64,000 nucleotides of DNA from an uncultured Chloroflexia bacterium. GTDB lineage: Bacteria > Chloroflexota > Anaerolineae > Anaerolineales > UBA4823. Location: NCBI GenBank assembly GCA_963695415.1, contig CAVOGL010000024.1:124802-188801 (forward strand), in the 5' to 3' direction. The first letter of the stretch is position 1, and each line of letters begins with the position of its first letter. Position numbers and translations under genes: made by a program. Below the pieces are notes generated by a model. It was not told where the DNA came from. It made no database searches and saw nothing but the letters and a program-made list of their open reading frames with translations. This document shows, one piece after another, positions 10,758-61,608 of the stretch.

Positions 10758-11527
10758 AAAACGCCGCCCGCACTGACTATGACGGGGAGACCTGGACGGT
10801 GTACAACCAGAACGGTCAGGTAACTGCCAGGTGGAACCCGGAAACCGAAGACTGGGACTACAATCCCGAAAACATGACCCGGAAAATTGCGGTTTTTGGC
10901 AGGGCTGAAATGTTTGGCATACCGACTATCCCCGCTGAGATGACCCAATTCATGCCAGTTGACCCCGAGGACAAGCAGGACTTGATGTTTAGGGTGCAGG
11001 ACGAAAACGGCAACCTGATCCCGGCACCCTTTGGGTTTGTCAGGACATCAGGCAAAGACACCGCAAATACTGTAGCTGAAATTTTTCTGCTCAGGTACAG
11101 GGGGCTGGTACAGGGGAAGGATATGGGGCCATACAAGAATTGGTTTGCGGTCCTGGAATGCCCGATTTCGCCTGACCGGTCTGTATTTGTGCTCCACTGG
11201 CTGACAGATCAGGAAAACAGTGAAGGTTCAGCGGTAACAGTAGATAGAGACCTGACACCCTTATTTGCAGGAGAGCCACTTAATAATACAATTATAAATA
11301 GCAAAGTAAGTAGAATTTCGCAGGCGGAAGTGCTGGAAATTTTCCGGAATTTTGAAGTCGGCCGGCAGCTGCTGCAGTTTTATCATAATGTCAAAGACGG
11401 TCCTCAATCTGAGCCGGTGAGAAGCCTGAAGGAGGCCATACTAAGCGGGACAGTTCCCCTAAACACAACCATAGATCATGATAATGGTACTATATTTGGT
11501 GATGATCTTCATTTTTTCAAAAAATAA
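10463..11527 (+). CDS. Tat-signal lipoprotein, C-terminal domain of unknown function
   Basis: MKKISRREFIRLAAAGFGALALEPLLSAC (twin-Arg + lipobox), ~60-aa Thr/Pro linker, ~250-aa unrecognised domain; 3' third visibly AT-richer; ATG at 10463 preferred over ORF-track start 10397. Confidence 0.7.
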   Translation: MKKISRREFIRLAAAGFGALALEPLLSACERVPPTGLPAAQSPTAAATSSPTPQPSSTSTPEPTLEPTATPTFTPQPTETPTPTATMPPPPEPVGLMDENAARTDYDGETWTVYNQNGQVTARWNPETEDWDYNPENMTRKIAVFGRAEMFGIPTIPAEMTQFMPVDPEDKQDLMFRVQDENGNLIPAPFGFVRTSGKDTANTVAEIFLLRYRGLVQGKDMGPYKNWFAVLECPISPDRSVFVLHWLTDQENSEGSAVTVDRDLTPLFAGEPLNNTIINSKVSRISQAEVLEIFRNFEVGRQLLQFYHNVKDGPQSEPVRSLKEAILSGTVPLNTTIDHDNGTIFGDDLHFFKK

Positions 11528-11618
11528 ACAATAATTGTCTTGCTGGGGAGCAGGTTTCTAAAAACAACATAGGAGTTCAATATTGTATCCGGGCGGGTAT
11601 CTGCTAAACTAGGAATAT

Positions 11619-12206
11619 ATGGGTGAACTCAGGCTTCCAAGGGCGGTATATTCAGCGGCTTGCTTTCTGCTAGCGATAGCCATCGTTCCCAAAATTTCTC
11701 AAACATATGCTGACATATGTTCTCCGACCAGGGTGGTCTACCAGCGCGCGTGTCAGAACTGATGCAAAAACTATATGTGTAAGGTGGAAAGATTGTGGAT
11801 ATAACGAGGACTGCCGCGACAGTGGTGTCAGAACAACCTAAGCCGGCAGTGCGACACAAACGAAGACTGTAATTCTGGGGGGCCATATCCGACTTATGAC
11901 GGCCCCTGCGGCCCGGTCTGCCTGGAGGTGACCGACGACAGCGGCGGAGAGTATTGCGTCGATACCGGGAATATTGATGTACAGTGTACCGGCGAGTTTG
12001 ATACTCCGAGCTGTGTTTACGCCGGACCTCTCAACGAGTGCGACAGATGATCCAAATGACGGTTCATGCCTGAATACTACTATAAATGTCAATTACGGCT
12101 GCTGGATACTGGAGCCATCAGTTGCTCCCAGCACTTCTCCCGGAGCTACAAACACCCCCAGACCCACTTCGCCACCCGTAGCTACTCCGACACAGGCAGC
12201 CAACGG
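11619..12206 (+). pseudogene. fragmented Cys-rich secreted protein gene (at least 3 frame changes)
   Basis: ATG 11619 after aggaa gives MGELRLPRAVYSAACFLLAIAIVP... (47 aa). Other frames continue ...CVRWKDCGYNEDCRDSG, then QCDTNEDCNSGGPYPTYDGPCGPVCLEV...ECDR, then DDPNDGSCLNTTINVNYGCW + Thr/Pro linker. NEDC motif recurs. Confidence 0.35.
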
Positions 12207-12209
12207 CTG

Positions 12210-12295
12210 TCCGACGGGCAGTATCTCCACCCCCTCCACGCTTTGCAGCCGCCTGACGTACTCCTCGATGGGCACGGAGATCACCGGCTGGTTGT
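12210..12295 (-). pseudogene. PIN-domain (VapC-like) gene remnant
   Basis: encodes VISVPIEEYVRRLQSVEGVEILPV, matching internal residues IIPLPIEEYVRRLQSVDGLEILPV of the intact vapC at 14201-14581; about 70 nt of nucleotide homology; no N- or C-terminal parts. Confidence 0.6.
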
Positions 12296-12315
12296 GTTAA
12301 AATACGCTTAAAGGC

Positions 12316-12636
12316 TTGGTCATGAAAATTGATATTGATATTGCATCAGAAACTATGACATCCTTCTGCCAGAAATGGATGATCACCGAATTATGTCTGT
12401 TTGGCTCCGTCTTGCGCGACGATTTTGGACCAGGTAGCGATATTGACGTTCTGGTTACTTTTTCTACTGAAGCTCGCTGGAGCTTGTTCGATCTGGTTCA
12501 AATTGAAAATGAGCTCAGCCAGCTGCTTAAACGGAAAGTCGATCTGGTTGAGCGAGAAGCGGTCGCACGCAGCCCGAACTATATTCGCCGGAAAAATATT
12601 TTGGAGAGCGCCAAAGTGATTTATGCAGCGCGATGA
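12316..12636 (+). CDS. mntA: MNT-type nucleotidyltransferase antitoxin (type VII TA)
   Basis: GSVLRDDFGPGSDIDVLV nucleotidyltransferase motif; overlaps downstream HEPN gene by 14 nt; ATG at 12322 is an alternative start. Confidence 0.8.
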   Translation: MVMKIDIDIASETMTSFCQKWMITELCLFGSVLRDDFGPGSDIDVLVTFSTEARWSLFDLVQIENELSQLLKRKVDLVEREAVARSPNYIRRKNILESAKVIYAAR

Positions 12637-13598: not shown

Positions 13599-14222
13599 CG
13601 ATATTTTTCTATGGGTGACACACAGGACCGTCCGCAGATATTAAGCGTTACTCCCAATATTATAGATATAAACGGTTTGGATGAGGCAAGCGGTTACAAA
13701 GATGTACGGATCGTGGCCACGTATTCAGATTCAGACGGTGCCAGCGCAATTGAGCGCGGATATGTAGGCATGTCGCAGTGCAGTATCAATCCGGGAGCGG
13801 CTTATGGTAGCAATTTCGAGCATAATTTCGCCAATTATTTCGGCGCTTACTATAATATCACCGGCGCGTGGGGAGGGGTGGCTACAAATAACGCCGCAGC
13901 TTTATGTGACGGAAACACTGATGGGTCAGGCTCCCCATGGACCAGCTTCTGGGCTGAGGCAGGTCATGAATTGCCCATGTCAAACCCCAACAGCATGATA
14001 ACCGTGATGAGCCACACCAGAGTGCCAAACGTAGTTAATAAAACCATTGACTTCATCTGGAATTTGAGAATTGACACCAATATCAGCGCCGGGACTTATT
14101 ACTATCACGGCATGGTTTCAGAGACGGCTGCAGCCGGAGGCAGCTATCAGAACCATGGCAAAGCCAGTTGGAGCGAACCATATTGGACTGGCGCGAACCC
14201 CTACCAGACCGTTTTTGCATAA
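13304..14222 (+). pseudogene. Tat-signal lipoprotein paralog; signal/linker out of frame (+1) with an unrelated C-terminal domain
   Basis: 13304-13618 encodes the same 98-aa signal/linker as gene 10463 then stops (..GLMDAIFFYG*). The 13323-14222 frame continues MGDTQDRPQILSVTPNIIDING... (204 aa from ATG 13611); no family recognised. Confidence 0.5.
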
Positions 14223-14581
14223 AACTCAGCCATCCTCCCATCAGACGTCAGCAAAGGACACTCGAAACGCGCCGCCAGTGCCACGATCGTGCGGTCTGCC
14301 GGGTCGCGGTGCTCCCATTCGAGGTTCAGGTTGTCCAGCCAATCCTGCACATCGACGGGCAGTATCTCCAACCCGTCTACGCTTTGCAGCCGCCTGACGT
14401 ACTCCTCGATGGGCAGTGGGATTATCAGCTTCTTGCGCTTGACCTTCAGCCCAATTTCCCAAACTGAAATCGAGCTGACCAGGATGCGGTCTGCCTGGGA
14501 GATAGCCTGTTTTGCGGGTCCGGATAACGCCTCTGGGTCCAGGGTCCAGTAAAGCAGAGCCGATGTGTCCAGGACGATCAC
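14201..14581 (-). CDS. vapC: PIN-domain toxin VapC
   Basis: 126-aa ORF; MIVLDTSALLYW (first acidic residue), SSISVWEI, DPADRTIVA, TSD motifs typical of PIN; GTG start abuts antitoxin stop. Confidence 0.85.
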   Translation of the reverse strand: MIVLDTSALLYWTLDPEALSGPAKQAISQADRILVSSISVWEIGLKVKRKKLIIPLPIEEYVRRLQSVDGLEILPVDVQDWLDNLNLEWEHRDPADRTIVALAARFECPLLTSDGRMAEFYAKTVW

Positions 14582-14815
14582 TCAGGCCTCTTCCCATTCA
14601 GCCAGGGTGGGCTCATTGATATTTTCCAGGTAGGTGACTTTGCCCTGCACCTTGCCAAACAATTCCTGAACGGAACTCTTCGGCTTGATCGGCGATATTT
14701 TCAGCACCGGTGTTCCGTGATCCGTGACGATCAACTCACCTCCGCTTGCTTCCAGCTCCCGGAATACTTCCAGCATCTTTGCTTTCAATTTGCTTTTCGA
14801 TATTGTATTTTCCAT
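14582..14815 (-). CDS. Phd/YefM-family antitoxin
   Basis: 77-aa ORF directly upstream of vapC; KAKMLEVFRELEASGGELIVTDHGTPVLKISP matches Phd/YefM fold pattern. Confidence 0.8.
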   Translation of the reverse strand: MENTISKSKLKAKMLEVFRELEASGGELIVTDHGTPVLKISPIKPKSSVQELFGKVQGKVTYLENINEPTLAEWEEA

Positions 14816-14838
14816 CCATGTACTCCAATATAATGACC

Positions 14839-14886
14839 ATAGTCATTACTATAGTCATTATAAATCAGGAACTATTTACCTGTCAA
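14839..14886 (-). promoter_or_regulatory. promoter and operator of the phd-vapC operon
   Basis: minus strand TTGACA (14886-14881) - 18 nt - TATAAT (14862-14857). Downstream lie palindrome TAATGACcataGTCATTA (14831-14848) and direct repeat ATAGTCATTA at 14839 and 14851. Confidence 0.6.
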
Positions 14887-14900
14887 TATCACCTCTCACA

Positions 14901-15165
14901 ACATTCGCCTCATTCGCCCATTCGTTTCATTCGTATTAAAACCTCCCCGGGCTTCTCGCATACATACAGCTCCGCAATCTCCATCTCCGCCGGGAGACAG
15001 TATCAAACTGCTTCACAGTCGTGATTGTCCAAAGGATTGTGACGATTTACGGACGAATGACACCTGACAGCGAGGCAGAGGTTTTGTATATTAAAAGCGT
15101 GGCAAGGATAAACTGGTTGATCCTAATCGGAAGGGAGTAACATGAAGAAAATATCCAGGCGAGAT
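14901..15165 (+). repeat. 265-nt repeat copy 2 upstream of and into the DUF362 gene
   Basis: see 13061-13325. Confidence 0.85.
15064..15092 (+). promoter_or_regulatory. candidate promoter of the DUF362/polyferredoxin operon
   Basis: cTGACA (15064-15069) - 17 nt - TATATT (15087-15092); same sequence as 13225-13253. Confidence 0.45.
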
Positions 15166-16111
15166 TTTGTGAAGATTGCCGCTGCTGGTCTGGGCGCTAT
15201 AGCGCTCGAGCCCCTGCTCTCCGCCTGCAAGCCCCAGGAAGTGGCTGTTCCTGTCACCGCTCCAACGGTGCAGCCAACAACCCCCGAGCCAGCGAAGACC
15301 GCAAACGGTCCCGATCTGGTCGTGGCGCGCAACCTTGAGCCGGAAGAGCTGGTGCGCAGGGCCCTGGCTGCCCTGGGAGGGATGCAGCGCTTCGTGCCCA
15401 AAGGCGCCAGCGTGATCGTCAAGCCCAATATCTGCGTGGCGTACCACACCTACGAATACGCCGCCACCACCAACCCCTGGGTGGTCGCAGCCCTGGTGCG
15501 GTTAGCCCTCGAAGCTGGGGCGCGGCAGCGTGCAGGTGATGGATTACCCCTTTGGCGGCTCCGCCGAGGAAGCCTACGTGAAGAGCGGCATCCAGGAGCA
15601 GGTGCAGGCTGCCGGCGGTGAGATGGTGTCCATGCCTCGCTTCAAATACGCCGAGGTGAACCTTCCTGATGCGGTTGACCTCAAGAGCACCCAGGCATTT
15701 CAGGATGCCCTCGACGCCGATGTGCTCATCGACGTGCCCATCGCCAAACACCACGGCTCTGCCCGCCTGACCCTGGGGATGAAAAACCTGATGGGGCTGG
15801 TCCTCGACCGCGGCGCCATCCACCAGGACCTGGGGCAGCGCATTGCCGACCTCGCCAGCCTGTTCCGCCCGGCATTGACGGTCGTGGACGCCGTGCGCAT
15901 CCTCAAGGCGCACGGTCCCTCCGGCGGGGACTTGAATGATGTCCAGCAGCTGGATACGCTCATCGCCAGCGCCGACATCGTCGCCGCCGACAGCTACGCC
16001 GCCACCCTGTTCGGCATGCAGCCCGGCGATATCGCCTACGTTGCCGCAGCCTCCCGCATGGGTCTCGGGCGCAGCGACCTGGAGAACCTCAAGATTGAAG
16101 AGATCTCGTAA
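15142..16111 (+). pseudogene. Tat-signal DUF362-domain protein, one apparent frameshift near 15520
   Basis: 15142-15621 gives MKKISRRDFVKIAAAG...LLSAC...VIVKPNICVAY...LALEAGAR. The 15530-16111 frame continues VQVMDYPFGG...IAKHHGSARLTLGMKNLMG (DUF362 hallmarks). Join at gcgcggcag-c-gtgcaggtg. Confidence 0.75.
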
Positions 16112-19641: not shown

Positions 19642-19716
19642 CCTTTAGGGGGGATTGAGGGGGGTGCCTTTAGTGGGGATTGAGGGGGGTGCCTTTAGGG
19701 GGGATTGAGGGGGGTC
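19642..19716 (+). repeat. 3 x 25-nt G-rich tandem repeat overlapping the stop codon of the PNPOx-like gene
   Basis: cctttaggggggattgaggggggtg x3 (one mismatch in unit 2); unit 3 contains the last codons and TAA of 19695-20192. Confidence 0.9.
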
Positions 19717-20192
19717 ACCATCGCCCTGCCTCGTGCCTTCTCCGGGTACCTCATCTCCATCAATGAAACTCCCACCCCGTACGTGATGAAATCTCCGATT
19801 GGCTCGATCGCGATCACCGCAGTGGAATCCAAAATATTACTGTCCAGTTCGAGTCCTCGGAACAGTGCCTTCAGAACATCCTCGCCGACCTCGTCAGGCT
19901 TGAGCAGGCTTGCCTTGCCCGAAAACGAGATCGTCGCCGCTGGAATTTTTATCCACGGCATCAAGGGTATCCGTTTGGCGATCGCCACGGTCAAAGAGAC
20001 ACTGGGGTTGCTGCGGATATGCCGTACTTTCCACGCGTCTTTCTCTGAAGAGACATAAAGCTTCTGCTCATTCACGATATACACAACGCCAACCGTGCGC
20101 GCCTCGCCCTTTGCTGTCACCATTCCCAGGACGGCGAAGATTTCTTTCTCCAGTTCCTTCCAGACAAGCTCGCTGGTGATTTGGTTTGCCAT
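19695..20192 (-). CDS. pyridoxamine 5'-phosphate oxidase-like FMN-binding family protein
   Basis: 165-aa ORF; split-barrel PNPOx-like pattern (FAVLGMVTAKGEARTVGVVYIV...RSNPSVSLTV). Confidence 0.7.
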   Translation of the reverse strand: MANQITSELVWKELEKEIFAVLGMVTAKGEARTVGVVYIVNEQKLYVSSEKDAWKVRHIRSNPSVSLTVAIAKRIPLMPWIKIPAATISFSGKASLLKPDEVGEDVLKALFRGLELDSNILDSTAVIAIEPIGDFITYGVGVSLMEMRYPEKARGRAMVTPLNPP

Positions 20193-20223
20193 TAAAAAGC
20201 TCCTTTAGTTTGTTTATTTGCCT

Positions 20224-20986
20224 GCACTGAACGAAAAGCGGATTGCGTTTCGCGCGCAGTTGTCCACGCAGGTCCCGCACAGGATACATTCCGAGTTTTC
20301 CATTTTTCCCAACTGCACCATGCCGTTCACGTCCAGGCTCATCGGGCAGTTCTTTGTGCACAGTCTTGCAGTCCTTGCAGGCGGATGCGTCTGCCTTCAG
20401 CCGCAGTGAGGGCCAGTCGAAGCGGTTGCGCACCCAGCGCCCGATCATCATGAACGGCGCCATCCAGCAGATGGTATGGCAGCCAGCCCTCCGTCCGGCG
20501 ATGACCGCCACAACCGACGAACAGGGCGATCACGAAATAGTAGATGATGTAGGCAAAAAGGATCGGGCGGTCTGGTGAGCCTGCCACCGAGATGCCGTTC
20601 TCGGTGTGGTAGAAGAGGTCGACGCTGGAATAACCACCCGCACGAACCGCCAGAAAGAACGATCAGGCTGACCCACGGGACCCAGATCAGCCACTTGATC
20701 CAGTCGATCCTGCGCCCATTCACCGCTTTGTTGTTGACCGGCTCGACGATCTCCTGCATCCCCCCGCCCGGGCACACCCACCCGCACCAGGCGCGCCCCA
20801 GGAACAGCGACGAGACGAACATCAGCCCGAACATGATCAGGCTGCCGTTGACGATCCCGTTCATGGCCCCGTCGATGATGACATACGGTGAAAGAAAGTT
20901 CATCGTGATCGGGAAGGACAGGAAAGCAGGATCACAATCCCCTTGCGGATACGTTGACGCAGTGGTAGTTGTTTGTTCATTGCCAT
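20224..20986 (-). pseudogene. membrane 4Fe-4S protein (YccM/NapH-like), about 4 frameshifts
   Basis: five frame segments join into MAMNKQLPLRQRIRKGIVILLS / FLSFPITMNF...GRAWCGWVCPGGGMQEIV...SLIVL / FFLAVRAGGYSS...YFVIALFV / ...GCHTICWMAPFMMIGRW...CKDCKT / CTKNCPMSLDV...CILCGTCVDNCARNAIRFSFSAGK*. Confidence 0.7.
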
Positions 20987-20987
20987 C

Positions 20988-21574
20988 TCAATCTCCTATT
21001 CTTGCGGTACTTCGCCGTTTCGGATGCGTGTCGATGACATTTTCAGCCCATTCCAGGTTGGCGCGCAGGTTACGCATGCCGTTGTCCAGCGTCAGCATCC
21101 AGAAGAAAGTGCTCGCGTGGTGATGGGATTTCATGCTTGTACGGCCTCGATGCTTACCGGGCACCTGTTCATACTGGGCCAGGATGGCGCGCATGATCGA
21201 TGGCATAATCCTTCGAATTTGGCCAGAAGCCTCATCGTCGCGCGATCATGCCCAGCGAAAGAAGACCTGGATGAGCGGTGCGCTGCGTGGCTCCATCCAT
21301 CGGCGGCGGACCCGCCAGCCACTTGCAGCAATTCAGCCCGTCCATCAGCGGTGATGTGATAGACCTTGCGGTCCGGGCGGTTTTCCTGGTCGACCTTTTC
21401 CACCTGCGCATAACCTTGTTCGGTCAGGCGGTTGAGGGTGCGGTAGATCTGGCTCTGGTCGGCGGGCCAGAAGTGCTGCACGGAAGTGTCAAAGATTTTC
21501 TTCAGATCATAGCCCGAGTAGGGGTGGTAGTTGAGAAATCCGAGGATTGCATGTTCAAGCGACATACAAGACAC
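20988..21574 (-). pseudogene. PadR-family transcriptional regulator, up to 4 frameshifts in the C-terminal half
   Basis: intact wHTH (LEHAILGFLNYHPYSGYDLKKIF...QSQIYRTLNRLTEQGY...KVYHITADGRAEL). C-terminal domain only readable by frame hopping (WLAGPPPMDG / PLIQVFF / AGHDRATMRLLAKFEG / IMRAILAQYEQ...FWMLTLDNGMRNLRANLEWAENVI). Confidence 0.7.
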
Positions 21575-21755
21575 TCCTTATATAAGACTATACATATATA
21601 ATATTAGTATAATAGTAAAATTGTCTTACGTCAAGACCGCAGCTTAGAAAAAATAGGAGATAACATTCGTCTGTATTTTTAGGTTTTATCAAGTTGGAAC
21701 GCCTTTTAGCGTTTTTATTCCCCCAATAAGAGGATAACAATTCATTGAATAAAGA

Positions 21756-22684
21756 TTATCCCACCATGCGGCACCATTCGATGGTTTCCCGAACAGCCTG
21801 TACCATCGAGGTGGGTTTGATCCCAAACGCCTGTTCAGCTTTGCTGCTGTCGATGACATACGGAGAAGTCCACTGCAAACATCATCTCACCAACCTCCGC
21901 AATTTCTTTATTGAATAATCCCAGCAGCCGAATCATCAAGGGTCCACCATAACGGATCTTTACAGGTGTGCCCAGTTCAGCAGCGAGCATCTGCATGAAA
22001 TCATCCTGCGTCACTGGCGGATTGGTTGGTGCGAACCAGACTTCCCCCATGGCATCATCATGGGTGCCGAGAGTTGCCAGCAATCTTCCAAAATCCGCCA
22101 GGTAGGTAAAGGAATGCGGCTGGTCTCTCCTCCCCACCAGGTTGGCGGTTTTCCCCTGAACCAAAGGCAGGATCGTGTATTCGGTGAAATCAAAATCATC
22201 CGGACCGAAGAAATCGGACGCTCTGCCAACCGCCGCCCTGACTCTGCCCTTCTCGTGCGCCTCCTGTACTGCGCGTGCCATCTCCGCCCGGACATTGCCC
22301 TTGCGGGTATTCGCTGCGATTGGTGACTCCTCGCGAAGTATCCCTTTGAAATGCCCGTACATGTAAAGATTGTCACCCACCACCAGCTTCGCCCCATTTC
22401 TAGATGCGGTTTCCAGAATAGCTGTCTGGAGAGGCGGGAATTTTTCCGCCCATTCGTAATACTCGGGTTGCGCGCACTGGTAGATAGTCGTGGCATCCAT
22501 GGTGATTTTCACGTTATTCTCCAGGTCATACGCATCCGCAGCGATGACCTCCACGCCCTTCGGCAGCCTGTCTGACTTTCCGGTGCGATTGACCATTCGC
22601 ACCCTCTTCCCCTGGCTGGCAAGTTCACGCTGCTGTCCATTTGCCCAGGGGTCCAGTGCCAAAAATCACGTGCAGTTCATTCAT
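21756..22684 (-). pseudogene. NAD-dependent epimerase/dehydratase (SDR) family protein, 2 frameshifts
   Basis: MNELHVIFGTGPLGKW (Rossmann GxGxxG) stops after 19 codons. The main ORF 21835-22662 continues RELASQGKRVRMVNR... A C-terminal shift near 21885 restores ...SPYVIDSSKAEQAFGIKPTSMVQAVRETIEWCRMVG*. Confidence 0.7.
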
Positions 22685-23393
22685 TCTGTTGTCCTCTTTC
22701 ATTGATAAAATATTGGATTTTTATGTGTTCGATCTCGCGGCGAAAAACATCGCCCGGATCGGTGATAAAAGAAGGCATGTGCCCTCCAATCTCCATCGAT
22801 ACCAGCCCGTGCACCCGGCTCCAGATGACCAGCGCCGCATACAGCACCTCTATTTCTGCGTTTCCGGCGACCTGGCTGCCAGGCAGCCAGCATGGCTTTG
22901 AGTTCCGGCGTCCTCGTGGTTGCCGGATCTACCCGCATCCTGCCAGACTGGTAGGTGGCAAGCAGTGTCATGATCAGTGGTTTCAGGGCACCCGACGCAG
23001 CGGGAAGTGTGATCTCTTCTGGTGCGTGGTAACCCGGGATCGGTGTGCCGAAGATCAGCTGGTATCGCTGCGGGTATGTAATCCCCCAGTTCCGGTATGC
23101 CAGTCCCAGTTCTGTGATCCTTTCCTCATGCTTCATCCGGCTTAATTTTCTCCATCCTCTGTTTCCCCAAGAAGGATGACGAACAAAGCGTCCACGATTA
23201 GCGCTGTCACCAGCGCATCACGGTCGGGATAATAGTTATAGATCGCCGGGGCTGTAATGCCCAGCTTTCGGGCGATCGCCCTAAGGCTTAGTGCAGCCGT
23301 TCCCGCTTCTGCAATTTGTTCCCAGGCGGTAGCTTTGATGCTTTCCGCCAGATTGGGAAGTTGGTCGTTTTTTCGATCGGTCGAGCGTGACAT
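22677..23393 (-). pseudogene. TetR-family regulator, about 3 frameshifts; stop overlaps SDR start
   Basis: HTH LSLRAIARKLGITAPAIYNYYPDRDALV. The C-terminal domain is split into ...KHEERITELGLAYRNWGITYPQRYQLIFGTPIPGY... and QVAGNAEIEVLYAALVIWSRVHGLVSMEIGGHMPSFITDPGDVFRREIEHI in another frame. Confidence 0.7.
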
Positions 23394-26822: not shown

Positions 26823-27014
26823 GATTTGGAACTCCTTTCAAAGATTAATTGCTGGGTTATGCAGGAATTCCAAGTCAAAGGTAAAACTTTTTCTAGAACT
26901 ACTGTGTAACAAGCATCTTATATTATCACAGATTCCTCATTTTGTGCTGGTCAATATATAGGTATTCCGATAAAATCGGGCGAAATAAGTTCATCTTCAC
27001 GGGAAAAATATGCC

Positions 27015-28740
27015 TTGAACCAAACCATGAAATGCCCGAGCTGTGGTGCGACGGTCGAATTTGATCCGGGTGGGACTCCCGTTGTTCGTTGTCCCTATTG
27101 CCAGACCTCCATCATAATTCCAACCGAATTGCGCCAACCCGCATCCTTACCGGTCCAAATGTTTCAGCGCCCCGGTTGGTCAGACCAAATCCTGCAGCCA
27201 GCCCAGGTCGCCAGTATCCAGGAGTTAGCTCGACTTGCTCACCAGGGGGACAAGATTGAGGCGATTAAAATTTACCGGCAGGTCTTTGGCGCAAGCCTCC
27301 AGGAATCGATAGACGCCGTAGAAAGTATCCAACAGGGTCATAATATCTCTAACCCACAGACGTCAACGCCCGGTCCATTTCTGCAGGATAAGCAGGTCAA
27401 GGATGAGGTTTCTCGTTTACTGCAGGACGGGCGTAAGATCGAAGCGATTAAGTATTACCGCCAGGTTACCGGGCAGAGTTTGAAGGATTCTAAGGAAGCG
27501 GTTGATAATTTTCAATCAAACGGTTCTCTCAATTTGCCTGCTTCTCCGGGTACATACCCTGCCGAGAATATATATCTGGCGGTCAGCCTGGTATCTGTGG
27601 TAGAGCTGGTTCAGGCAGGTGAAGAACAGGCAGCAATTTCCGCCTTCCAGGGTGCATTTGGTGTCGGTTTTGCGGAAGCGCATGCAAGCGGTTCATAAAA
27701 TTTCCCTGGGCGTTACCCAGGATGCGCTGGCAATCGATCCAACCCGGCAAACATTCAATACCATCAAAATTCCTGAGGTTTCTTCCAAAGCCATGAAAAC
27801 AACCGCCGGAGTGGTTGGCGGTATCTCATGTTTATGGGTGTTTGGAGTGATTGCAGTGATTCTCATAACAGTAGTACCGGTATTGTTTGCTCTCAGCAGT
27901 TCGGGCGGACCCCTGGAATTCATCTGGAATCAAATCAACCCGATGGCATACGCCCGGGTTAGCTTGAGATTCGGTGAAGAGGGTAGAGCTCCTGGAATGT
28001 TCGATGATCCGCGCCAGATGACGATTGATCCGCAAGAAAACTTACTCATCGCCAATTACTCGGATGGTCGCGTTCAGAAATTTGATTCATCGGGTGACTA
28101 CATGATGCTCTGGAATATCGGAACGGAGAAATATGTCAGCGGGATAGCATCAGACCAGGATGGTGCTGTTTATCTGGTCTATCGCGGCGGGCTCTGGAAG
28201 TACGCTTCAGAAACAGGTGAGCTTCTGGGCAGGATGGCTGAGAATATGGATGCCTGGTTTGAGGTTGTTGCCACTACAGCCGATAATGGTGTTGTTGCCG
28301 CTGTGAATACGGAACAGATTATGCGCTTTGATTCGAAGGGAAATCTGGTTTTTTCCTTAGCAGATATCCCCGGCACGCAGAGCGGAAAGCCTGATAGAAT
28401 CCAGGACATCGCGGTCGATGGAGTTGGTGGAATGTATGTGCTTTCTGATCGCGGCACGATCAACATTTACACACCCCAGGGTCGTCTGGTCACTCGCTTC
28501 GGTAGCGCCGGTGATGAACAGGGTCAGTTGCGTGCTCCTTCAGCGATTGCGGTGGATGGACTGGGTAATATTTACATCAGTGATATCAAAGGGATTCAAG
28601 TTTTTACGAATGATGGGCGCTACCTGGATCGCATTGAGACCGAAGGTTTCGCCTTCGGCATGGAATTTGATGCTCAAGGCGCTCTTTGGGTGGTCACCAA
28701 TCTGCCCAAAGTTTTCAAATACGAGATCGTTGAACGGTGA
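27015..28740 (+). pseudogene. zinc-ribbon / 3 x L7-L12-C-like repeat / TM / NHL beta-propeller protein, one apparent +1 insertion at 27681
   Basis: CPSCGATVEF..CPYCQT; repeats IEAIKIYRQVFGASLQESIDAVESIQ and IEAIKYYRQVTGQSLKDSKEAVDNFQ. The third repeat AAISAFQGAFGVGFAEA|MQAVHKIS is completed only across the frame change. Then TM helix and NHL-like blades (GNIYISD, GGMYVLSD). Confidence 0.65.
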
Positions 28741-28834
28741 GGAGAAACTAAACCGCACACAGTCCGGAACGCTTATTTGTTACAATTCGATCTGTAACAG
28801 TCCAACGCCATCCTGTGCCTTAGGAGAGATCCAG

Positions 28835-30314
28835 ATGGACTACGCCCCAGAAAATGAAGGTCACATGCTCCAGGTCAGGAACTATATCGAGCACCATCCT
28901 GAGCCCGGTTACCAGCATGCCTCCGATGAAGCCAAAGAAGCTTTTCGCGACATGAAGTACGGTGTGCGCATCCATTGGGGGCTTTACACGCTGTGGAACC
29001 TGCGCAACGAATCCTGGAAATTTCTGCGCATGTCTCGCCAGCGGCGCCAGGCTTACCAGCAGCTTTACCAGGAGTTCAACCCCCAGAATTTTGATGCCGA
29101 CGCCTGGATGGAATTTTTTAAGAGGGTTGGTTTCAGGTGCTTTGCCATCACCACCAAGCACCACGAAGGCTTCTCACTGTTTGACACCCGGACGCGCGTG
29201 CGCAGCAGGATGAATTGGGCAGCTCCTGGCGGTCCGCAGATCGAAGACTGCGACCTGGCTTACAGCGTGATGGACACACCCTTCAAGCGCGACATTATTG
29301 CCGAGTTGTGTGCATCAGCCCAACAGCATGGCATCAAAACCGACCTGTATTTTTCCCACCCCGATTGGTACGACGCTGACTTTCGCCCCTACAGCTTTCA
29401 CCCTCTCCAAACCCAGAGAGTTCTACGATCTGCCGCAAGAATATGGCACGGTCGAGTACGTGAATTTACTCAAACCACCTCGCCACATATTGTCTCCTGA
29501 GCCATCTCCTGAAGAAGTCCAGCGCATGATGGCGCGACACCGTGCTCAGCTGGTCGAATTACTCACCAACTACGGCAAAATCGACATGCTCTGCCTGGAT
29601 ATGTGGCTTGGCAAGCCCGTCTGGTCTGAGCTGCGTCAGACGATCAAGCTGCTGCGCCAGATCCAGCCCGACGTTATGCTGCGCATTCGTGGCATCGGCA
29701 ATTACGGCGATTACTACACTCCCGAAGGGATTGTTCCCGCGGACAAAGCCGAGACCAATATGCCCTGGATGGTGATTTACCCCCTGGGACGCACCTTTTC
29801 CTACGAAACGCAGGTCCGGTTTCACAAAGGACCGGATTGGATCATCCGCAATCTGATCCAGTGCACGGCTACGGGAGGCAATTTCATGGTTGGGATCGGT
29901 CCTGATGCGGATGGCTGGTTTCACCCGCGCGCAATTGAGGTGCTTGAACAGGTGGGAGAATGGCTTCAACTGAACGGCGAGGCAATCTATGCCACCCGCC
30001 CTCACACTCCATGGCATGACGGTCAGGGTATCTTCTTCTCGAAGGCAAAAGACAACCGCTCCATTTATGCCTTCTTCTGCGAGGATGCCTGGAAAGAGGC
30101 GCGTAAATCAGGTCGTTTGATCCTTGGATCCATTCCAGTCCGGCAGGGATTGCAGATTACGCCGCTTGGTGTCGATTCAACGCCCACATCTTCAGGGCTG
30201 GAATGGTCCCAGGAGGGTCAATCCCTGGTCGTACACCTTCCTGCTCGAGTGAGTGAGCAGATGCACCGGACCATCCGGTTTGCCAGGGTTTTTAAATTCT
30301 CTTATTCATCATAG
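28835..30314 (+). pseudogene. alpha-L-fucosidase (GH29), frameshift near 29400
   Basis: YGVRIHWGLYT, FAITTKHHEGFSLFDT, then frame change (..DADFRPY | KPREFYDLPQEYG), DMLCLDMW, TGGNFMVGIGPDADG; ATG 28835 after aggagag. Confidence 0.75.
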
Positions 30315-57647: not shown

Positions 57648-58946
57648 TCAGCTTTTCCCCGTCACTCCGTCCCCGGTCTCCCGTCCTCCCACATAAACCA
57701 ACCGCCCCCTTTTCATCACCATCACCACCGCGTTGTTGCCCAGCCGGTAGATGCTGTCATCGAAGGATGGCAGGTCCCAGACCTGGATGTCGGCAAGTTT
57801 CCCCTTCTCCAACGTGCCGCGGTCATCCAGCCCCACCGCCTGTGCCGCATAGTGGGTTGCCGACAACAGCGCCTCTTCAGGGCTGAATCTGTACAGCCGG
57901 CATGCCAGCTGCATCACCAGCTGCATCGATTCCATCCAGCATCCCGGGCAGAAATCGGTCGCCAGCGCCACGCGCATTCCCCGATCCATCATCGCCCGTG
58001 CATCGAACGGCTTGGGATGCCGCACCGCGAAATCCAGCCCGGGCATCACCACACCCACAACCCCTGCTTCTGCAAGGCTCTCGATCTCCGCCTCGCTGGT
58101 ATAGTTCAGGTGGTCTGCAGAAATCGCGGGCAGTTCAGCCGCCAGCCGGCTTCCGCCAATGTTGGCATACGCGTCCACGTGCATTTTTGGTCGCAGCCCG
58201 TGCTGCATCCCTTTCTCCAGGATGCGCCGCGATTCCTCCACACTGTAGTAGCCTTCATCGCAGTACACATCGCAGAAATCAGCCAGACCTCTCTCTGCCA
58301 CCTTCGGGATCATCTCATCCAGCAGCATTCCCAGGTAGCGTTCCCTGGTCACCTCAGCAGGGAAATCATGGGCTCCCAGGAAGGTACTCACCACGTCCAC
58401 CGGCTGCCAGGAAGCCAGTTCCTGGTTGATCTCCAGCATTTCAATCTCTTTCGCCAGGGTCAACCCGTACCCGCTTTTGCTTTCGACCGTTGTGGTGCCG
58501 TAGGACAGCATGCGCTCCAACCGCCCCAGCGCTTCATCGCACAGCGCATCTTTGCTGCTGGCGCGTGTCATCCTTACCGTCGCCTGGATGCCGCTTGGGA
58601 TTCCCATCGCGGCCACCTCAGCCGCATTGCGCGTCATCCTCGCCGCGTACTCCTGTGCCCGCGTGCCGCCGAAGACCAGGTGCGTGTGGCAGTCCACGAA
58701 CCCCGGCGCCAGGATCTTCCCGCTCACGTTTACCACGCGTGCCTGTGAGAGGTTGAACTGCGATTCCAGTTCGCTCAGTTCTGCCACCGCGGCTATGGTC
58801 TCGCCCTGTACCGCCACTGCCGCGCCCTTTCGTTGTCCCAGTGGGTTGCCAGCCTCCGGGCAGCACGTCAGCGCCATCATCGCCCCCTTCAATACCAGGT
58901 CTACTGCCGGCTTTTCCACTCTTTCTATCCGTGCGCTCTCACTCAT
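57648..58946 (-). CDS. hutI: imidazolonepropionase
   Basis: amidohydrolase metal motif FVDCHTHLVFGG, family-typical HVDAYAN, ATDFCPG; ATG 58946 chosen, ORF open to 58979. Confidence 0.85.
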   Translation of the reverse strand: MSESARIERVEKPAVDLVLKGAMMALTCCPEAGNPLGQRKGAAVAVQGETIAAVAELSELESQFNLSQARVVNVSGKILAPGFVDCHTHLVFGGTRAQEYAARMTRNAAEVAAMGIPSGIQATVRMTRASSKDALCDEALGRLERMLSYGTTTVESKSGYGLTLAKEIEMLEINQELASWQPVDVVSTFLGAHDFPAEVTRERYLGMLLDEMIPKVAERGLADFCDVYCDEGYYSVEESRRILEKGMQHGLRPKMHVDAYANIGGSRLAAELPAISADHLNYTSEAEIESLAEAGVVGVVMPGLDFAVRHPKPFDARAMMDRGMRVALATDFCPGCWMESMQLVMQLACRLYRFSPEEALLSATHYAAQAVGLDDRGTLEKGKLADIQVWDLPSFDDSIYRLGNNAVVMVMKRGRLVYVGGRETGDGVTGKS

Positions 58947-60689
58947 CCTTTGTGTGGGGTCCCAGCCGGTCACCCGCACCGGTACTGCCCCCAGCTGTCT
59001 CCGGTCCGAAGGTCGCCGTGGGTGACCACCACAGCGGAATCTTGATGGTCTCTCCGGTCAGGGGTCCCTTCCCCTCGCACACCTGCCGCGCGGTTTCGTA
59101 ACCCGCCTGCGCGTGCCGCACCACCCCAATGCCCGAATCCGTGGTCATGCACACATCCAGCCGCAGGTCGGCCTCCTCGCTCCCGTCGGCGATCATCGTC
59201 ACGCCGGTGTGTACCGCCTCGCCCATCGAGTAGTTGGCCTGGATTGCCACCAGGTCTGCCATCCCCGCCGTGTTCAGCAGCGCGTTCAAATAAGGCCAAT
59301 CGGAGATCAGGTCTCCGCCATCCTTCATCTTCTCCGATTCGAAGGTCGGGTTGACGATCGAGCCCGAGTCCAGGTTGTCGCGCGAGAAGCCCACCGGTCC
59401 CGCCAGTTCCCCGCTGCGGATCATCTCGTTTACCCGCAGTGCCAGTTCTCGCCGCTCCCCAAAGCCCAGGTAGCACACCCGCGCTGGCAGCGCCTCGATC
59501 GGCAGGGTCTCGCGCGCCAGCTCGATCCACTTCACCGTTGTCTTATCGTGCGGGAACATCTCCAGCACCAGCGCATCGATCTTCGCCAGGTCACTGGCCT
59601 CGCCCGACAGGCACGTCCAGCGGAACGGTCCCCTTCCCACCAGGAACAACGGGCGGATATACGCCGCCACGAACCCCGGGATGGTCATGGCCTCCGCCTC
59701 CGGCATGCCCGCGTCGCGGCACTCCTTGCGGATGCTGGTGCCGTATTCGAAAACCTGAACGCCCTTGTGGTAGAAAGCATTCATCGCCGCTAACTGACGC
59801 TTCATTGAATCGCGCGCCACCTGGAAGTAGCCGTCCCGGTCCGCGGCTCGCAGTTCAGCCGCCGACTTCCGCGCTGTAACCCGCCGGGATGTAAGACAGC
59901 GGGTCGTGGCACGGGCACATCTCGGAGATGATGTCCGGCAGCCAGCCCATCTCCAGCGCCTTCGGGAACAATTCTGCTGCGTTCCCCCACACCCCGATCC
60001 CTACAGCCCTCTTCTCAGCTTTAGCCTTTTCGGCGATCTGAACGGCTTCTTCCAACGAGTCCGCCTCGATATCGAGGAAGCCTCTCTCCAGAGAACGCTG
60101 GATGATTGCCGGGTTGGCATCCACTACCACGCATACCCCGCCGTGCATCGTCGTCGCCCGCGGCTGGTTACGCCCCATCCCGCCTAATCCTGCGGTCAGG
60201 TAGATCCTGCCCGCCAGGCTGCCGCCAAAATGCTGCTCGGCGATTGCGCCCAGGGTCTCGAAGGTGCCCTGGATCACGCCCTGGGTGCCGATGTACTCCC
60301 ACGGTCCCGCCGTGTACTGTGCGAACATGGTCAGGTTCTTGTCCTGCAAGATCGTAGAAGATTTCCCACGTTGCCTTCATGATATTGGTGTTTGCCATCA
60401 CCACCCTCGGCGCCAGGCGGTGTGTTTTGAACATAGCCACCGGCATCCCGGACTGGACCACCAGTGTTTCGTTGTTCTCTAACTCCATCAGTGACTGCAC
60501 GATGGCGTGGTAGCTTTCCCAGTTGCGGGCGCACTTCCCGATCCCGCCGTAGATCACCAGGCGTTCCGGCGCTTCGGCGTTCTCCATGTTGTTTTCCAGC
60601 ATGCGCAGCAGCGATTCCTGTTTCCAGCCTTTGCAGCGCAGTGTTTTTCCGCGCTGTGCCTTCACAGAATATAAAATTTCGGGTTTCAT
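58939..60689 (-). pseudogene. urocanate hydratase, 2 frameshifts (near 60349 and 59868)
   Basis: three ORF pieces 60168-60689, 59855-60349, 58939-59820 join as ..WEIFYDL|QDKNLTMFAQYTAGPWEYIGTQGVIQGTFET..PAGYSAE|SAAELRAADRDGYFQVARDSMKRQ..FEYGTSIRKEC.. Confidence 0.85.
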
Positions 60690-60714
60690 TGGGTTTCTCC
60701 TGGGTATGTAATTA

Positions 60715-61608
60715 TTAATCGAGTAAAGCCGTCTCGATGATTTGCTCCATCTTGAAGTCGTGCACCTGTAAGTAATATTTCAGCACCTCTTCCACCGCTC
60801 CCAGTGGCACCGGTCCGACCAGTTCTGCCCCAGCCACCATCACGCCGTAGCGTTTTGCCTCCGCCCGTACCGCTTCCAGCACGCGCGGGATCGGCGTTTT
60901 GGCGTAATTTACCAGGTTCATCGACACCTGCACCTGCCCTTTATCTTCCAGCGCCAGCCCCATCGCCCGCACGTAGCGGAACCCGCCGTTGATGTGCCGC
61001 ACAGCCCTGGCAATATTTTCAGCGACAGACACGTCCGTCGTCAGCAGGTTCACGTTGAATGCCACCAGTGGAAAGCGCACTCCGGTTACCATCGCCCCCG
61101 CTTTGGCGTTGAATGACGCTGGTCCCTCGTCCGGCGCCCATGCCGGGTCTTGCAGCTTCTTTTCCAGGGCTTCGTACTGCCCCTTGCGGATATCGGGCAG
61201 CCGTTCTCGTTCCGGTCGCAGTGCCGCTTCCTCGTAATAATAAACCGGTACCCCCAGGCTGCCGACATAGCTGCCGAACTGGCGCGCCACTTCCACCGCT
61301 TCAGCCGTCTCCATACCCCGTACCGGGATGAACGGCGCCACGTCGACCGCCCCCATGCGCGGGTGCGAGCCGTGGTGCTGGCGCATGTCGATCTTCTCGA
61401 AAGCCTTCTTCGCCATTGCCTTTGTTGCTTCCAGCACCGTTTCCGGATCGCCAAGGTAGGTGAATACTGAGCGGTTGTGGTCCGCATCCGAGCTTATGTC
61501 CAGGATCTTGATCCCTTCGTGTCGCTGCACCTCCGCCAGCACCTCTTCCACGAGAGCCAGGTCGATGCCTTCGCTGATGTTCGGTTCGCACAGGAGTACT
61601 TTTTTCAT
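60715..61608 (-). CDS. ftcD: glutamate formimidoyltransferase domain (in frame with upstream cyclodeaminase, no stop between)
   Basis: MKKVLLCEPNISEG, DADHNRSVFT, HPRMGAVDVAPF motifs of the FTCD N-type domain. Confidence 0.8.
   Translation of the reverse strand: MKKVLLCEPNISEGIDLALVEEVLAEVQRHEGIKILDISSDADHNRSVFTYLGDPETVLEATKAMAKKAFEKIDMRQHHGSHPRMGAVDVAPFIPVRGMETAEAVEVARQFGSYVGSLGVPVYYYEEAALRPERERLPDIRKGQYEALEKKLQDPAWAPDEGPASFNAKAGAMVTGVRFPLVAFNVNLLTTDVSVAENIARAVRHINGGFRYVRAMGLALEDKGQVQVSMNLVNYAKTPIPRVLEAVRAEAKRYGVMVAGAELVGPVPLGAVEEVLKYYLQVHDFKMEQIIETALLD

What the first reader, a model, noticed from the sequence alone, without database searches (positions are those of the whole stretch)
20224..23393. 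Four adjacent genes carry about 13 frameshifts in 3.2 kb while flanking genes are intact
By manual frame-stitching the counts are: membrane 4Fe-4S gene about 4 frame changes, PadR about 4, SDR 2, TetR about 3. That is roughly one per 250 nt. Apart from the shifts, the encoded sequences are still strongly family-like, with no obvious in-frame nonsense or heavy substitution. The neighbours are clean: the PNPOx-like gene on one side and the csp and helicase on the other. So is the 3.2-kb protease gene elsewhere in the window. A uniform sequencing-error process does not easily give this clustering. Possible explanations are a low-coverage or mis-polished assembly patch, a collapsed mixture of strain variants, or a very recent burst of indel mutations in a dispensable regulon (two regulator-plus-redox-enzyme pairs: tetR-SDR and padR-4Fe4S).
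Basis: partly seen in the sequence, partly recalled or inferred. Interest (0 to 1): 0.6.

Follow-up and report, generated by a model that had tools for sequence, protein, structure and literature searches.

The report
Patch of single-base assembly insertion errors
Four neighbouring genes really are shattered by about 30 extra single bases in this sequence, but close relatives lack those bases and the pattern fits consensus errors in a metagenome assembly, not decaying genes.

Summary
At 20.3-23.4 kb, tetR, an SDR/epimerase gene, padR and a membrane 4Fe-4S gene are broken by about 30 small indels. PadR alone has 12, not about 4.

Short-read contigs of 95-99.9% identical strains from eight independent metagenomes lack every indel they cover. 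One strain, about 99.5% identical over SDR and tetR, encodes TetR with no frame break from its start to 22879, as far as that contig runs.

The indels do not look like mutations:
- Nearly all are +1 insertions.
- They show no link to homopolymers, and more than half differ from both neighbouring bases.
- On the + strand the extra base is G in 13 of 24 cases.
- They also occur in spacers.
- With the extra bases skipped, PadR, the 4Fe-4S protein and SDR read stop-free and family-typical.
- Substitutions remain mostly third-position and synonymous.

The patch is about ten times denser than the rest of the window, and a 5-kb control has none. It is not unique: DUF362, fucosidase, urocanase and a membrane-protein gene also carry +1 breaks. 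Its edge cuts through a conserved padR-Fer4-PNPOx operon.

Best reading, about 0.88: a local consensus error of an indel-prone, probably long-read and strain-mixed, metagenome assembly. The source reads could not be found, so this is inferred. It is not a biological feature.

The parts
22702..23393 (-). tetR-family regulator gene. It is broken by a compensated +1/+2 pair (23386, 23375), a scrambled stretch (23133-23184) and one extra base near 22878.
   Evidence: Pfam TetR_N and TetR_C_33. tblastn with the intact L001 TetR falls in three frames. X1's version reads without a frame break from its start to 22879, as far as that contig runs.
21756..22684 (-). SDR / NAD-dependent epimerase-dehydratase (NmrA-like) gene with two single extra bases (22631, 21875).
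   Evidence: Pfam PF01370. The L001 orthologue (309 aa, 71% identity) aligns in three frames. Contigs of X1, X2 and X4 lack both bases. The gene reads stop-free when they are skipped.
20996..21565 (-). padR (AphA-like, PadR + Vir_act_alpha_C) gene with 12 single extra bases between 21030 and 21325, about one per 27 nt.
   Evidence: Pfam. Homologues are uniformly 185 aa. Three-frame stitching shows 12 successive +1 steps. Contigs of X9, X36, X37 and X17 lack each base. The gene reads stop-free when they are skipped.
20214..20986 (-). Membrane 4Fe-4S (Fer4_5, NapH-like) gene with three extra bases (20364, 20516, 20659) and one missing base (after 20929).
   Evidence: Pfam Fer4_5 and Fer4. Contigs of X1-X4. 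With these handled it gives a 256-aa stop-free product with CxxCxxCxxxCP restored. Substitutions are 27/38 at codon position 3.
21656..21666 (.). Three single extra bases in the padR-SDR spacer.
   Evidence: X1 and X4 contigs lack 21656, 21664 and 21666.
23133..23184 (-). Scrambled 50-nt stretch in the TetR linker, with 9 small indels and 3 substitutions against a 99.5%-identical strain.
   Evidence: X1's version encodes VDAFASLGEAQEDSIRKFSPDEHEERITELG, which matches the L001 TetR.
19695..20192 (-). Intact PNPOx-like gene. It is the third gene of the conserved padR-Fer4-PNPOx operon and marks the left edge of the patch.
   Evidence: The ORF is intact and hits Pfam PNPOx_N. It is 64% identical to the third gene of L002. 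X2 and X3 contigs match without gaps.
15127..16111 (+). DUF362 gene split by one +1 break near 15.5 kb. This is the same kind of lesion outside the patch.
   Evidence: Pfam profile positions 1-36 fall in one ORF and 34-199 in the next. An X1 contig has 1 gap here. Polarity is +1.
28361..30314 (+). Alpha-L-fucosidase gene split by one +1 break near 29.4 kb.
   Evidence: Pfam profile positions 22-206 and 190-345 fall in two overlapping ORFs. Polarity is +1.
58939..60779 (-). Urocanase gene split by extra bases at 59867 and 60348.
   Evidence: Pfam Urocanase_N sits in one ORF, and the end of the Rossmann domain plus the C domain in another. Contigs of X1-X4 lack the bases.

Best explanation
The breaks are errors in how this metagenome-assembled sequence was built. 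They are not lesions in the organism's DNA.

A roughly 3.2-kb patch received a poor consensus that added single, mostly non-templated bases and garbled one 50-nt stretch. The surrounding sequence was called correctly. The patch is densest over a 1.5-kb tract where co-occurring strains differ by about 5%.

The likely cause is an indel-prone, probably long-read, assembly. Candidate local causes are low coverage, failed polishing, or reads of two strains blended in one pile-up.

The underlying genes are ordinary and intact:
- a tetR-SDR pair, also adjacent in L001;
- a padR-Fer4_5-PNPOx operon, also present in L002-L004.

What is shown:
- The indels are absent from relatives.
- The spectrum is insertion-only and non-templated.
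- The coding sequence underneath is intact.

What is inferred:
- The sequencing technology.
- The exact consensus failure.
For: 1. Every indel that a contig covers is missing from short-read contigs of near-identical strains in eight independent metagenomes. These contigs agree with one another against the window. X1 is about 99.5% identical over SDR and tetR, and its TetR has no frame break from the start to 22879, as far as that contig runs.

2. Polarity: outside the scrambled stretch there are about 27 insertions and 1 deletion. Every other split gene in the window is also +1. Bacterial mutation is deletion-biased (PMC6054270).

3. Context: of 24 read-defined extra bases, 13 differ from both neighbours and none lies in a run longer than 3. 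That equals the expectation for random insertion (0.43), so these are not slippage events. The extra base is G on the + strand in 13 of 24 cases.

4. No decay: with the extras skipped, PadR, Fer4 and SDR are stop-free and family-typical. Fer4 substitutions are 27/38 at third codon positions and 22/34 codons are synonymous. The ratio of indels to substitutions is far above any natural ratio. One X36 contig shows 7 indels against 9 substitutions in about 230 nt of padR, and an X1 contig shows 1 indel against 3 substitutions in 621 nt of SDR.

5. Spacers are hit as well. The patch edge cuts a conserved operon and leaves its third gene intact.

6. No indexed run holds the garbled padR stretch (best share 0.16, against 0.35-0.39 for other stretches).

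7. Residual indels that fragment genes are a well-described property of long-read assemblies (bioRxiv 10.1101/2021.08.23.457338, PMC9262707, PMC8812927).
Against: - The reads behind this assembly were not found, so no direct per-base support could be checked.
- All comparison contigs come from other samples and therefore other strains, so strain-specific real indels are not formally excluded.
- Typical Nanopore consensus errors are homopolymer deletions, which this spectrum is not.
- My specific test of 'both alleles of a SNP kept side by side' was inconclusive (8 of 17 sites against 4.8 expected, P = 0.08).
- One strain (X2) has a real-looking deletion of about 630 bp in padR. This shows the locus can vary naturally.
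Confidence: 0.88

Rival explanations
1. The indels are real. In this strain the tetR-SDR and padR-Fer4 genes were inactivated very recently and are decaying as a dispensable island.
For: - The cluster is real and local.
- The genes are accessory regulator and redox-enzyme pairs.
- Strain X2 seems to carry a natural deletion of about 630 bp in padR.
- The Fer4-padR tract is a divergent allele, about 5% from four other strains. The locus therefore has a history of exchange.
Against: - About 27 insertions against 1 deletion runs counter to the deletion bias of bacterial pseudogenes (PMC6054270).
- The insertions are non-templated and avoid homopolymers.
- There are no nonsense codons, and substitutions are still mostly synonymous.
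- Twelve independent frameshifts in 300 nt, with only a handful of substitutions, is not a neutral spectrum.
- Spacers are hit too.
- The third gene of the same operon is untouched.
- The same +1 lesions occur in urocanase, fucosidase and DUF362.
Confidence: 0.06
2. The extra bases are real and arose in one event. A tract imported by recombination was copied by an insertion-prone synthesis, or heteroduplex mismatches were resolved by keeping both bases.
For: - The densest part (20.3-21.8 kb, 19 extras) coincides with a tract that is about 5% divergent from strain X1, while both flanks are 1% divergent or less.
- The weak trend towards extras that could be synonymous third-position alleles (8/17 against 4.8) fits 'both bases kept'.
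Against: - No such process is known in bacteria.
- The trend is not significant.
- SDR and tetR, nearly identical to X1, also carry extras.
- A consensus built from blended strains predicts the same coincidence without new biology.
Confidence: 0.04
3. The shifts are decoded, by programmed +1 frameshifting or four-base codons, so the genes are functional as written.
For: All shifts have the same +1 polarity.
Against: - The sites share no motif: contexts and codon phases are scattered (phases 5/5/7).
- None of the shifts is conserved in relatives at 95-99.9% identity or in orthologues.
- Spacers carry them too.
- One site is a missing base, and one stretch is scrambled.
Confidence: 0.01

Closest known systems
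Residual indel (frameshift) errors in long-read or hybrid genome and metagenome assemblies, as addressed by proovframe (bioRxiv 10.1101/2021.08.23.457338), Polypolish (PMC8812927) and Sereika et al. 2022 (PMC9262707)
   Same: Genes are fragmented by single-base indels while the underlying coding sequence is intact. Errors persist in patches where polishing or coverage fails. Independent short-read data lack them.
   Different: Classic Nanopore residual errors are homopolymer-length errors, mostly deletions. Here the errors are insertion-only and non-homopolymer, with a G bias on one strand. This points to a pile-up or strain-blending failure, or to another chemistry. The technology of this assembly is unknown to me.
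Consensus errors where co-existing strains (haplotypes) are collapsed into one contig of a metagenome-assembled genome
   Same: The densest errors lie in a tract where strains differ by about 5%. The errors are insertions only, and the neighbouring low-divergence sequence is clean.
   Different: I could not show that each extra base is the alternative allele; the codon-phase test gave P = 0.08. SDR and tetR carry extras although one reference strain is 99.5% identical there.
Genuine bacterial pseudogene clusters (reductive evolution; PMC6054270)
   Same: Adjacent accessory genes are interrupted by frameshifts.
   Different: Real pseudogenes show deletion bias, nonsense and non-synonymous changes, and are usually shared by close relatives. 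None of this is seen here.

Membership tests
Assembly/consensus indel artefact | Indels are absent from independent assemblies of near-identical organisms | tested here: met
   Contigs of eight metagenomes lack every covered indel and agree with each other.
Assembly/consensus indel artefact | The coding sequence is intact once indels are ignored (no stops, family-typical length) | tested here: met
   PadR, Fer4 and SDR read stop-free. X1's TetR has no frame break from its start to 22879, where that contig ends.
Assembly/consensus indel artefact | The error spectrum is unlike spontaneous mutation | tested here: met
   About 27 insertions against 1 deletion. 13 of 24 extras are non-templated and none lies in a run longer than 3. 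G bias is 13/24.
Assembly/consensus indel artefact | The same lesions occur in unrelated genes elsewhere in the assembly | tested here: met
   DUF362, fucosidase, urocanase and a membrane-protein gene in this window. Other pieces of the genome are known only from unchecked notes.
Assembly/consensus indel artefact | The source reads do not support the extra bases | not testable with these tools
   No run held more than 0.39 of the words, and no Nanopore run was listed.
Real pseudogene cluster | Deletion-biased indels with nonsense and non-synonymous decay | tested here: not met
   PMC6054270.
Real pseudogene cluster | Lesions are confined to genes or functional units under relaxed selection | tested here: not met
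   Spacers are hit. The third gene of the padR-Fer4-PNPOx operon is intact.
Programmed frameshift / four-base decoding | A shared site motif, with the shift conserved in relatives | tested here: not met
   No common context. Relatives and orthologues are unshifted.
PadR-Fer4_5-PNPOx operon (gene content) | A 185-aa PadR with Vir_act_alpha_C, followed by a 248-aa Fer4_5 membrane protein and a 160-aa PNPOx-like protein | tested here: met
   L002-L004 gene tables. tblastn and BLASTP against the window.

The most novel reading that the evidence does not exclude
The extra bases are really in the DNA of one strain. A roughly 3-kb tract overlapping an imported, 5%-divergent allele would have been rewritten in a single event by a synthesis or mismatch-resolution process that adds single non-templated bases (mostly G on one strand) and almost never deletes. 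This would be a localised insertion shower with no known bacterial mechanism.
Probability: 0.04. Interest if true: 0.8.

Novelty: not a real feature. Interest (0 to 1): 0.07.

Why it matters
The value is mainly for data quality. These four genes, and at least four others in this window, should not be annotated as pseudogenes or used as evidence of gene loss in this lineage. Insertion-only, non-homopolymer patches that coincide with strain-variable tracts are a recognisable signature. Screening for it would help before frameshift clusters in metagenome-assembled genomes are read as biology. If the insertions were real, they would show an unknown localised mutational process, but the evidence is strongly against that.

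Tried and rejected
1. Homopolymer or methylation-motif errors are rejected. No extra base sits in a run longer than 3 and there is no shared context.

2. 'Two alleles of a SNP kept side by side' was tested by asking whether each extra base could be a synonymous third-position alternative of a neighbour. The result was 8 of 17 against a null mean of 4.8 (P = 0.08), with codon phases of 5/5/7. This is inconclusive.

3. A simple codon-usage Viterbi scan for frameshifts across the window could not separate adjacent genes from shifts, and it called much of the patch non-coding. I dropped it.

4. The search for the source run failed. The best shares were 0.39, no Nanopore run was listed, and the garbled padR stretch reached at most 0.16.

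5. The search for longer contigs of close strains by exact protein look-up failed. P0001 and the PNPOx-like protein are not on record, and csp gave one short contig without DNA.

6. Repeats or RNA elements that might explain a mis-assembly were not found. There were only chance-level short repeats and no Rfam hit.

7. A cyanobacterial HIP1 signal gave 7 sites against 2 expected, which is not at cyanobacterial level.

Paralogues in the genome and genome-wide frameshift density therefore could not be examined.

Full report
**What is there**

All four genes lie on the minus strand.
- tetR: 23393-22702.
- An SDR/NAD-epimerase gene: 22684-21756.
- padR: 21565-20996.
- A membrane 4Fe-4S (Fer4_5) gene: 20986-20214.
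- An intact PNPOx-like gene follows at 20192-19695.

The ORF list shows only overlapping fragments in different frames. Pfam places the fragments in the expected families.

An intact tetR (238 aa) and SDR (309 aa) pair sits in a Chloroflexota MAG, L001, at 71% identity. Intact padR (185 aa), Fer4_5 (248 aa) and PNPOx-like (160 aa) operons sit in three metagenome contigs, L002-L004. The gene content is therefore ordinary: two conserved regulator-plus-redox units.

**Checking the counts**

- SDR: tblastn with the L001 proteins puts the SDR in three frames, with breaks at about 22630 and 21876.
- TetR: the same search puts TetR in three pieces.
- 4Fe-4S gene: four breaks.
- PadR: three-frame reading against 185-aa homologues shows 12 successive +1 steps between 21325 and 21030.

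**Comparison with near-identical strains**

Logan contigs of eight public short-read metagenomes hold this organism or close strains at low depth, at 95-99.9% identity. These are X1-X4, X9, X17, X36 and X37. Wherever a contig covers a break, it lacks the window's extra base.

Extra bases in the window:
- 20364, 20516, 20659
- 21030, 21105, 21144, 21159, 21203, 21206, 21226, 21244, 21250, 21261, 21294, 21325
- 21656, 21664, 21666
- 21875, 22631
- 23375 (2 bases) and 23386

Other differences:
- One base is missing after 20929.
- A break near 22878 is placed by tblastn. Contigs of X3 and X4 each carry one gap over that stretch.
- A 50-nt stretch (23133-23184) is scrambled.

The runs agree with one another against the window.

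X1 is about 99.5% identical over SDR and tetR. Rebuilt from the listed differences, its TetR runs from MSPRP without a frame break through the linker to 22879, where the contig ends, and it matches L001.

**Is the cluster more than chance?**

| Stretch | Indel places |
|---|---|
| 19.5-24.5 kb | 32, plus 10 more in padR seen only at lower stringency |
| 32.8-37.8 kb (control) | 0 real; every long piece has 0 gaps |
| 57.5-62.5 kb | 8 |
| 1-19.5 kb | 20, several of them natural X2-only indels such as an 18-bp insertion |

That is roughly 12 per kb inside the patch against about 1 per kb outside.

The window is not otherwise clean.
- Pfam shows split DUF362, fucosidase and urocanase genes.
- Contigs confirm extra bases at 59867 and 60348.
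- All of these breaks have +1 polarity, as does one in a membrane-protein gene near 62.9 kb.
- Unchecked notes from this scan report many more split genes on another piece of the same genome.

**Nature of the indels**

- Context: of 24 read-defined extras, 13 differ from both neighbours and 11 lie in runs of 2-3. This equals the expectation for random insertion of a random base (0.43). None lies in a longer homopolymer.
- Base bias: the extra base is G on the + strand in 13 of 24 cases, and in 10 of 12 within padR.
- Polarity: outside the scrambled stretch there are about 27 insertions and 1 deletion. Bacterial mutation and pseudogene decay are deletion-biased, and slippage is the usual source of single-base indels (PMC6054270).
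- No decay: with the extras skipped, PadR, Fer4 and SDR read without a stop and look family-typical. The CxxCxxCxxxCP motif is restored at 20364.
- Substitutions: in the Fer4 gene the window differs from four strains at about 5% of sites. Of these, 27 of 38 are at third codon positions and 22 of 34 codons are synonymous. That is normal allelic divergence under purifying selection, with the indels superimposed on it.
- Ratio: indels are far too frequent relative to substitutions for neutral decay. One X36 contig shows 7 against 9 over about 230 nt of padR.
- Location: spacers are hit too. The left edge of the patch falls inside the conserved padR-Fer4-PNPOx operon and leaves the third gene perfect.

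**Why here?**

Relative to X1, divergence varies along the locus.

| Region | Divergence from X1 | Extras |
|---|---|---|
| 20.3-21.8 kb (Fer4, padR, spacer) | about 4.6% | 19 |
| SDR and tetR | about 0.6% | fewer |
| 5-kb control | about 0.5% | 0 |

The hut region, at about 3% divergence, has a few extras. This suggests that the consensus failed where co-occurring strains differ.

My explicit test that each extra is the alternative allele of a neighbouring base was only suggestive (8 of 17 against 4.8 expected, P = 0.08). Other agents of this scan describe the same insertion-only, often G-rich patches in many other MAGs and reached the same verdict. These are leads, not independent evidence.

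**Limits**

- The source reads were not found. The artefact is therefore inferred from comparison and spectrum, and has not been seen directly.
- The technology is unknown. The 209.6-kb contig and the error type suggest a long-read or hybrid metagenome assembly. Gene-fragmenting indels are well described for such assemblies (bioRxiv 10.1101/2021.08.23.457338, PMC9262707, PMC8812927; pipeline example PMC12313526). Whether this genome belongs to any such catalogue is not known.

**Verdict**

The best explanation is a local consensus or assembly artefact (confidence 0.88). Real recent decay (0.06), a one-off insertion shower (0.04) and recoding (0.01) are poorly supported. This is not a biological feature, and its interest is low.

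Noticed in passing
window 21104-21750: One X2 contig (1145 nt, depth 7) joins about 21120 to 21750. That strain therefore seems to lack about 630 bp, including the PadR DNA-binding domain and its promoter. This could be a natural deletion or a contig misjoin.
   Followed up: partly
window 20300-21770: This tract is about 5% divergent from four metagenome strains that agree with each other, while both flanks are 1% divergent or less from X1. It looks like a recombination-imported allele of Fer4-padR. The substitutions are mostly synonymous.
   Followed up: partly
window 19642-19715: A G-rich 25-nt unit (CCTTTAGGGGGGATTGAGGGGGGT plus 1 nt) is repeated three times head to tail and overlaps the stop of the PNPOx-like gene. 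The X2 strain has one unit fewer (25 bases left out at 19642).
   Followed up: partly
window 11050-12350 and 13650-14950: Almost no contig from X1-X4 aligns here at 90% or better. This is either strain-specific accessory DNA or another garbled patch.
   Followed up: no
L002 4001-5797; L003; L004: A conserved three-gene operon, padR (185 aa), Fer4_5 membrane protein (248 aa) and PNPOx-like protein (160 aa), occurs in other Chloroflexota-type contigs with the same 10-nt padR-Fer4 spacing as the window.
   Followed up: partly
window 26910-28737: Two long + strand ORFs (26910-27695 and 27604-28737) overlap by about 90 nt with +1 polarity.
   Followed up: partly
whole window: Close strains of this organism appear at low depth in metagenomes labelled freshwater sediment, marine sediment, soil, estuary, aquaculture and 'outdoor'. 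That is an unusually wide habitat spread, or it reflects one large survey.
   Followed up: no
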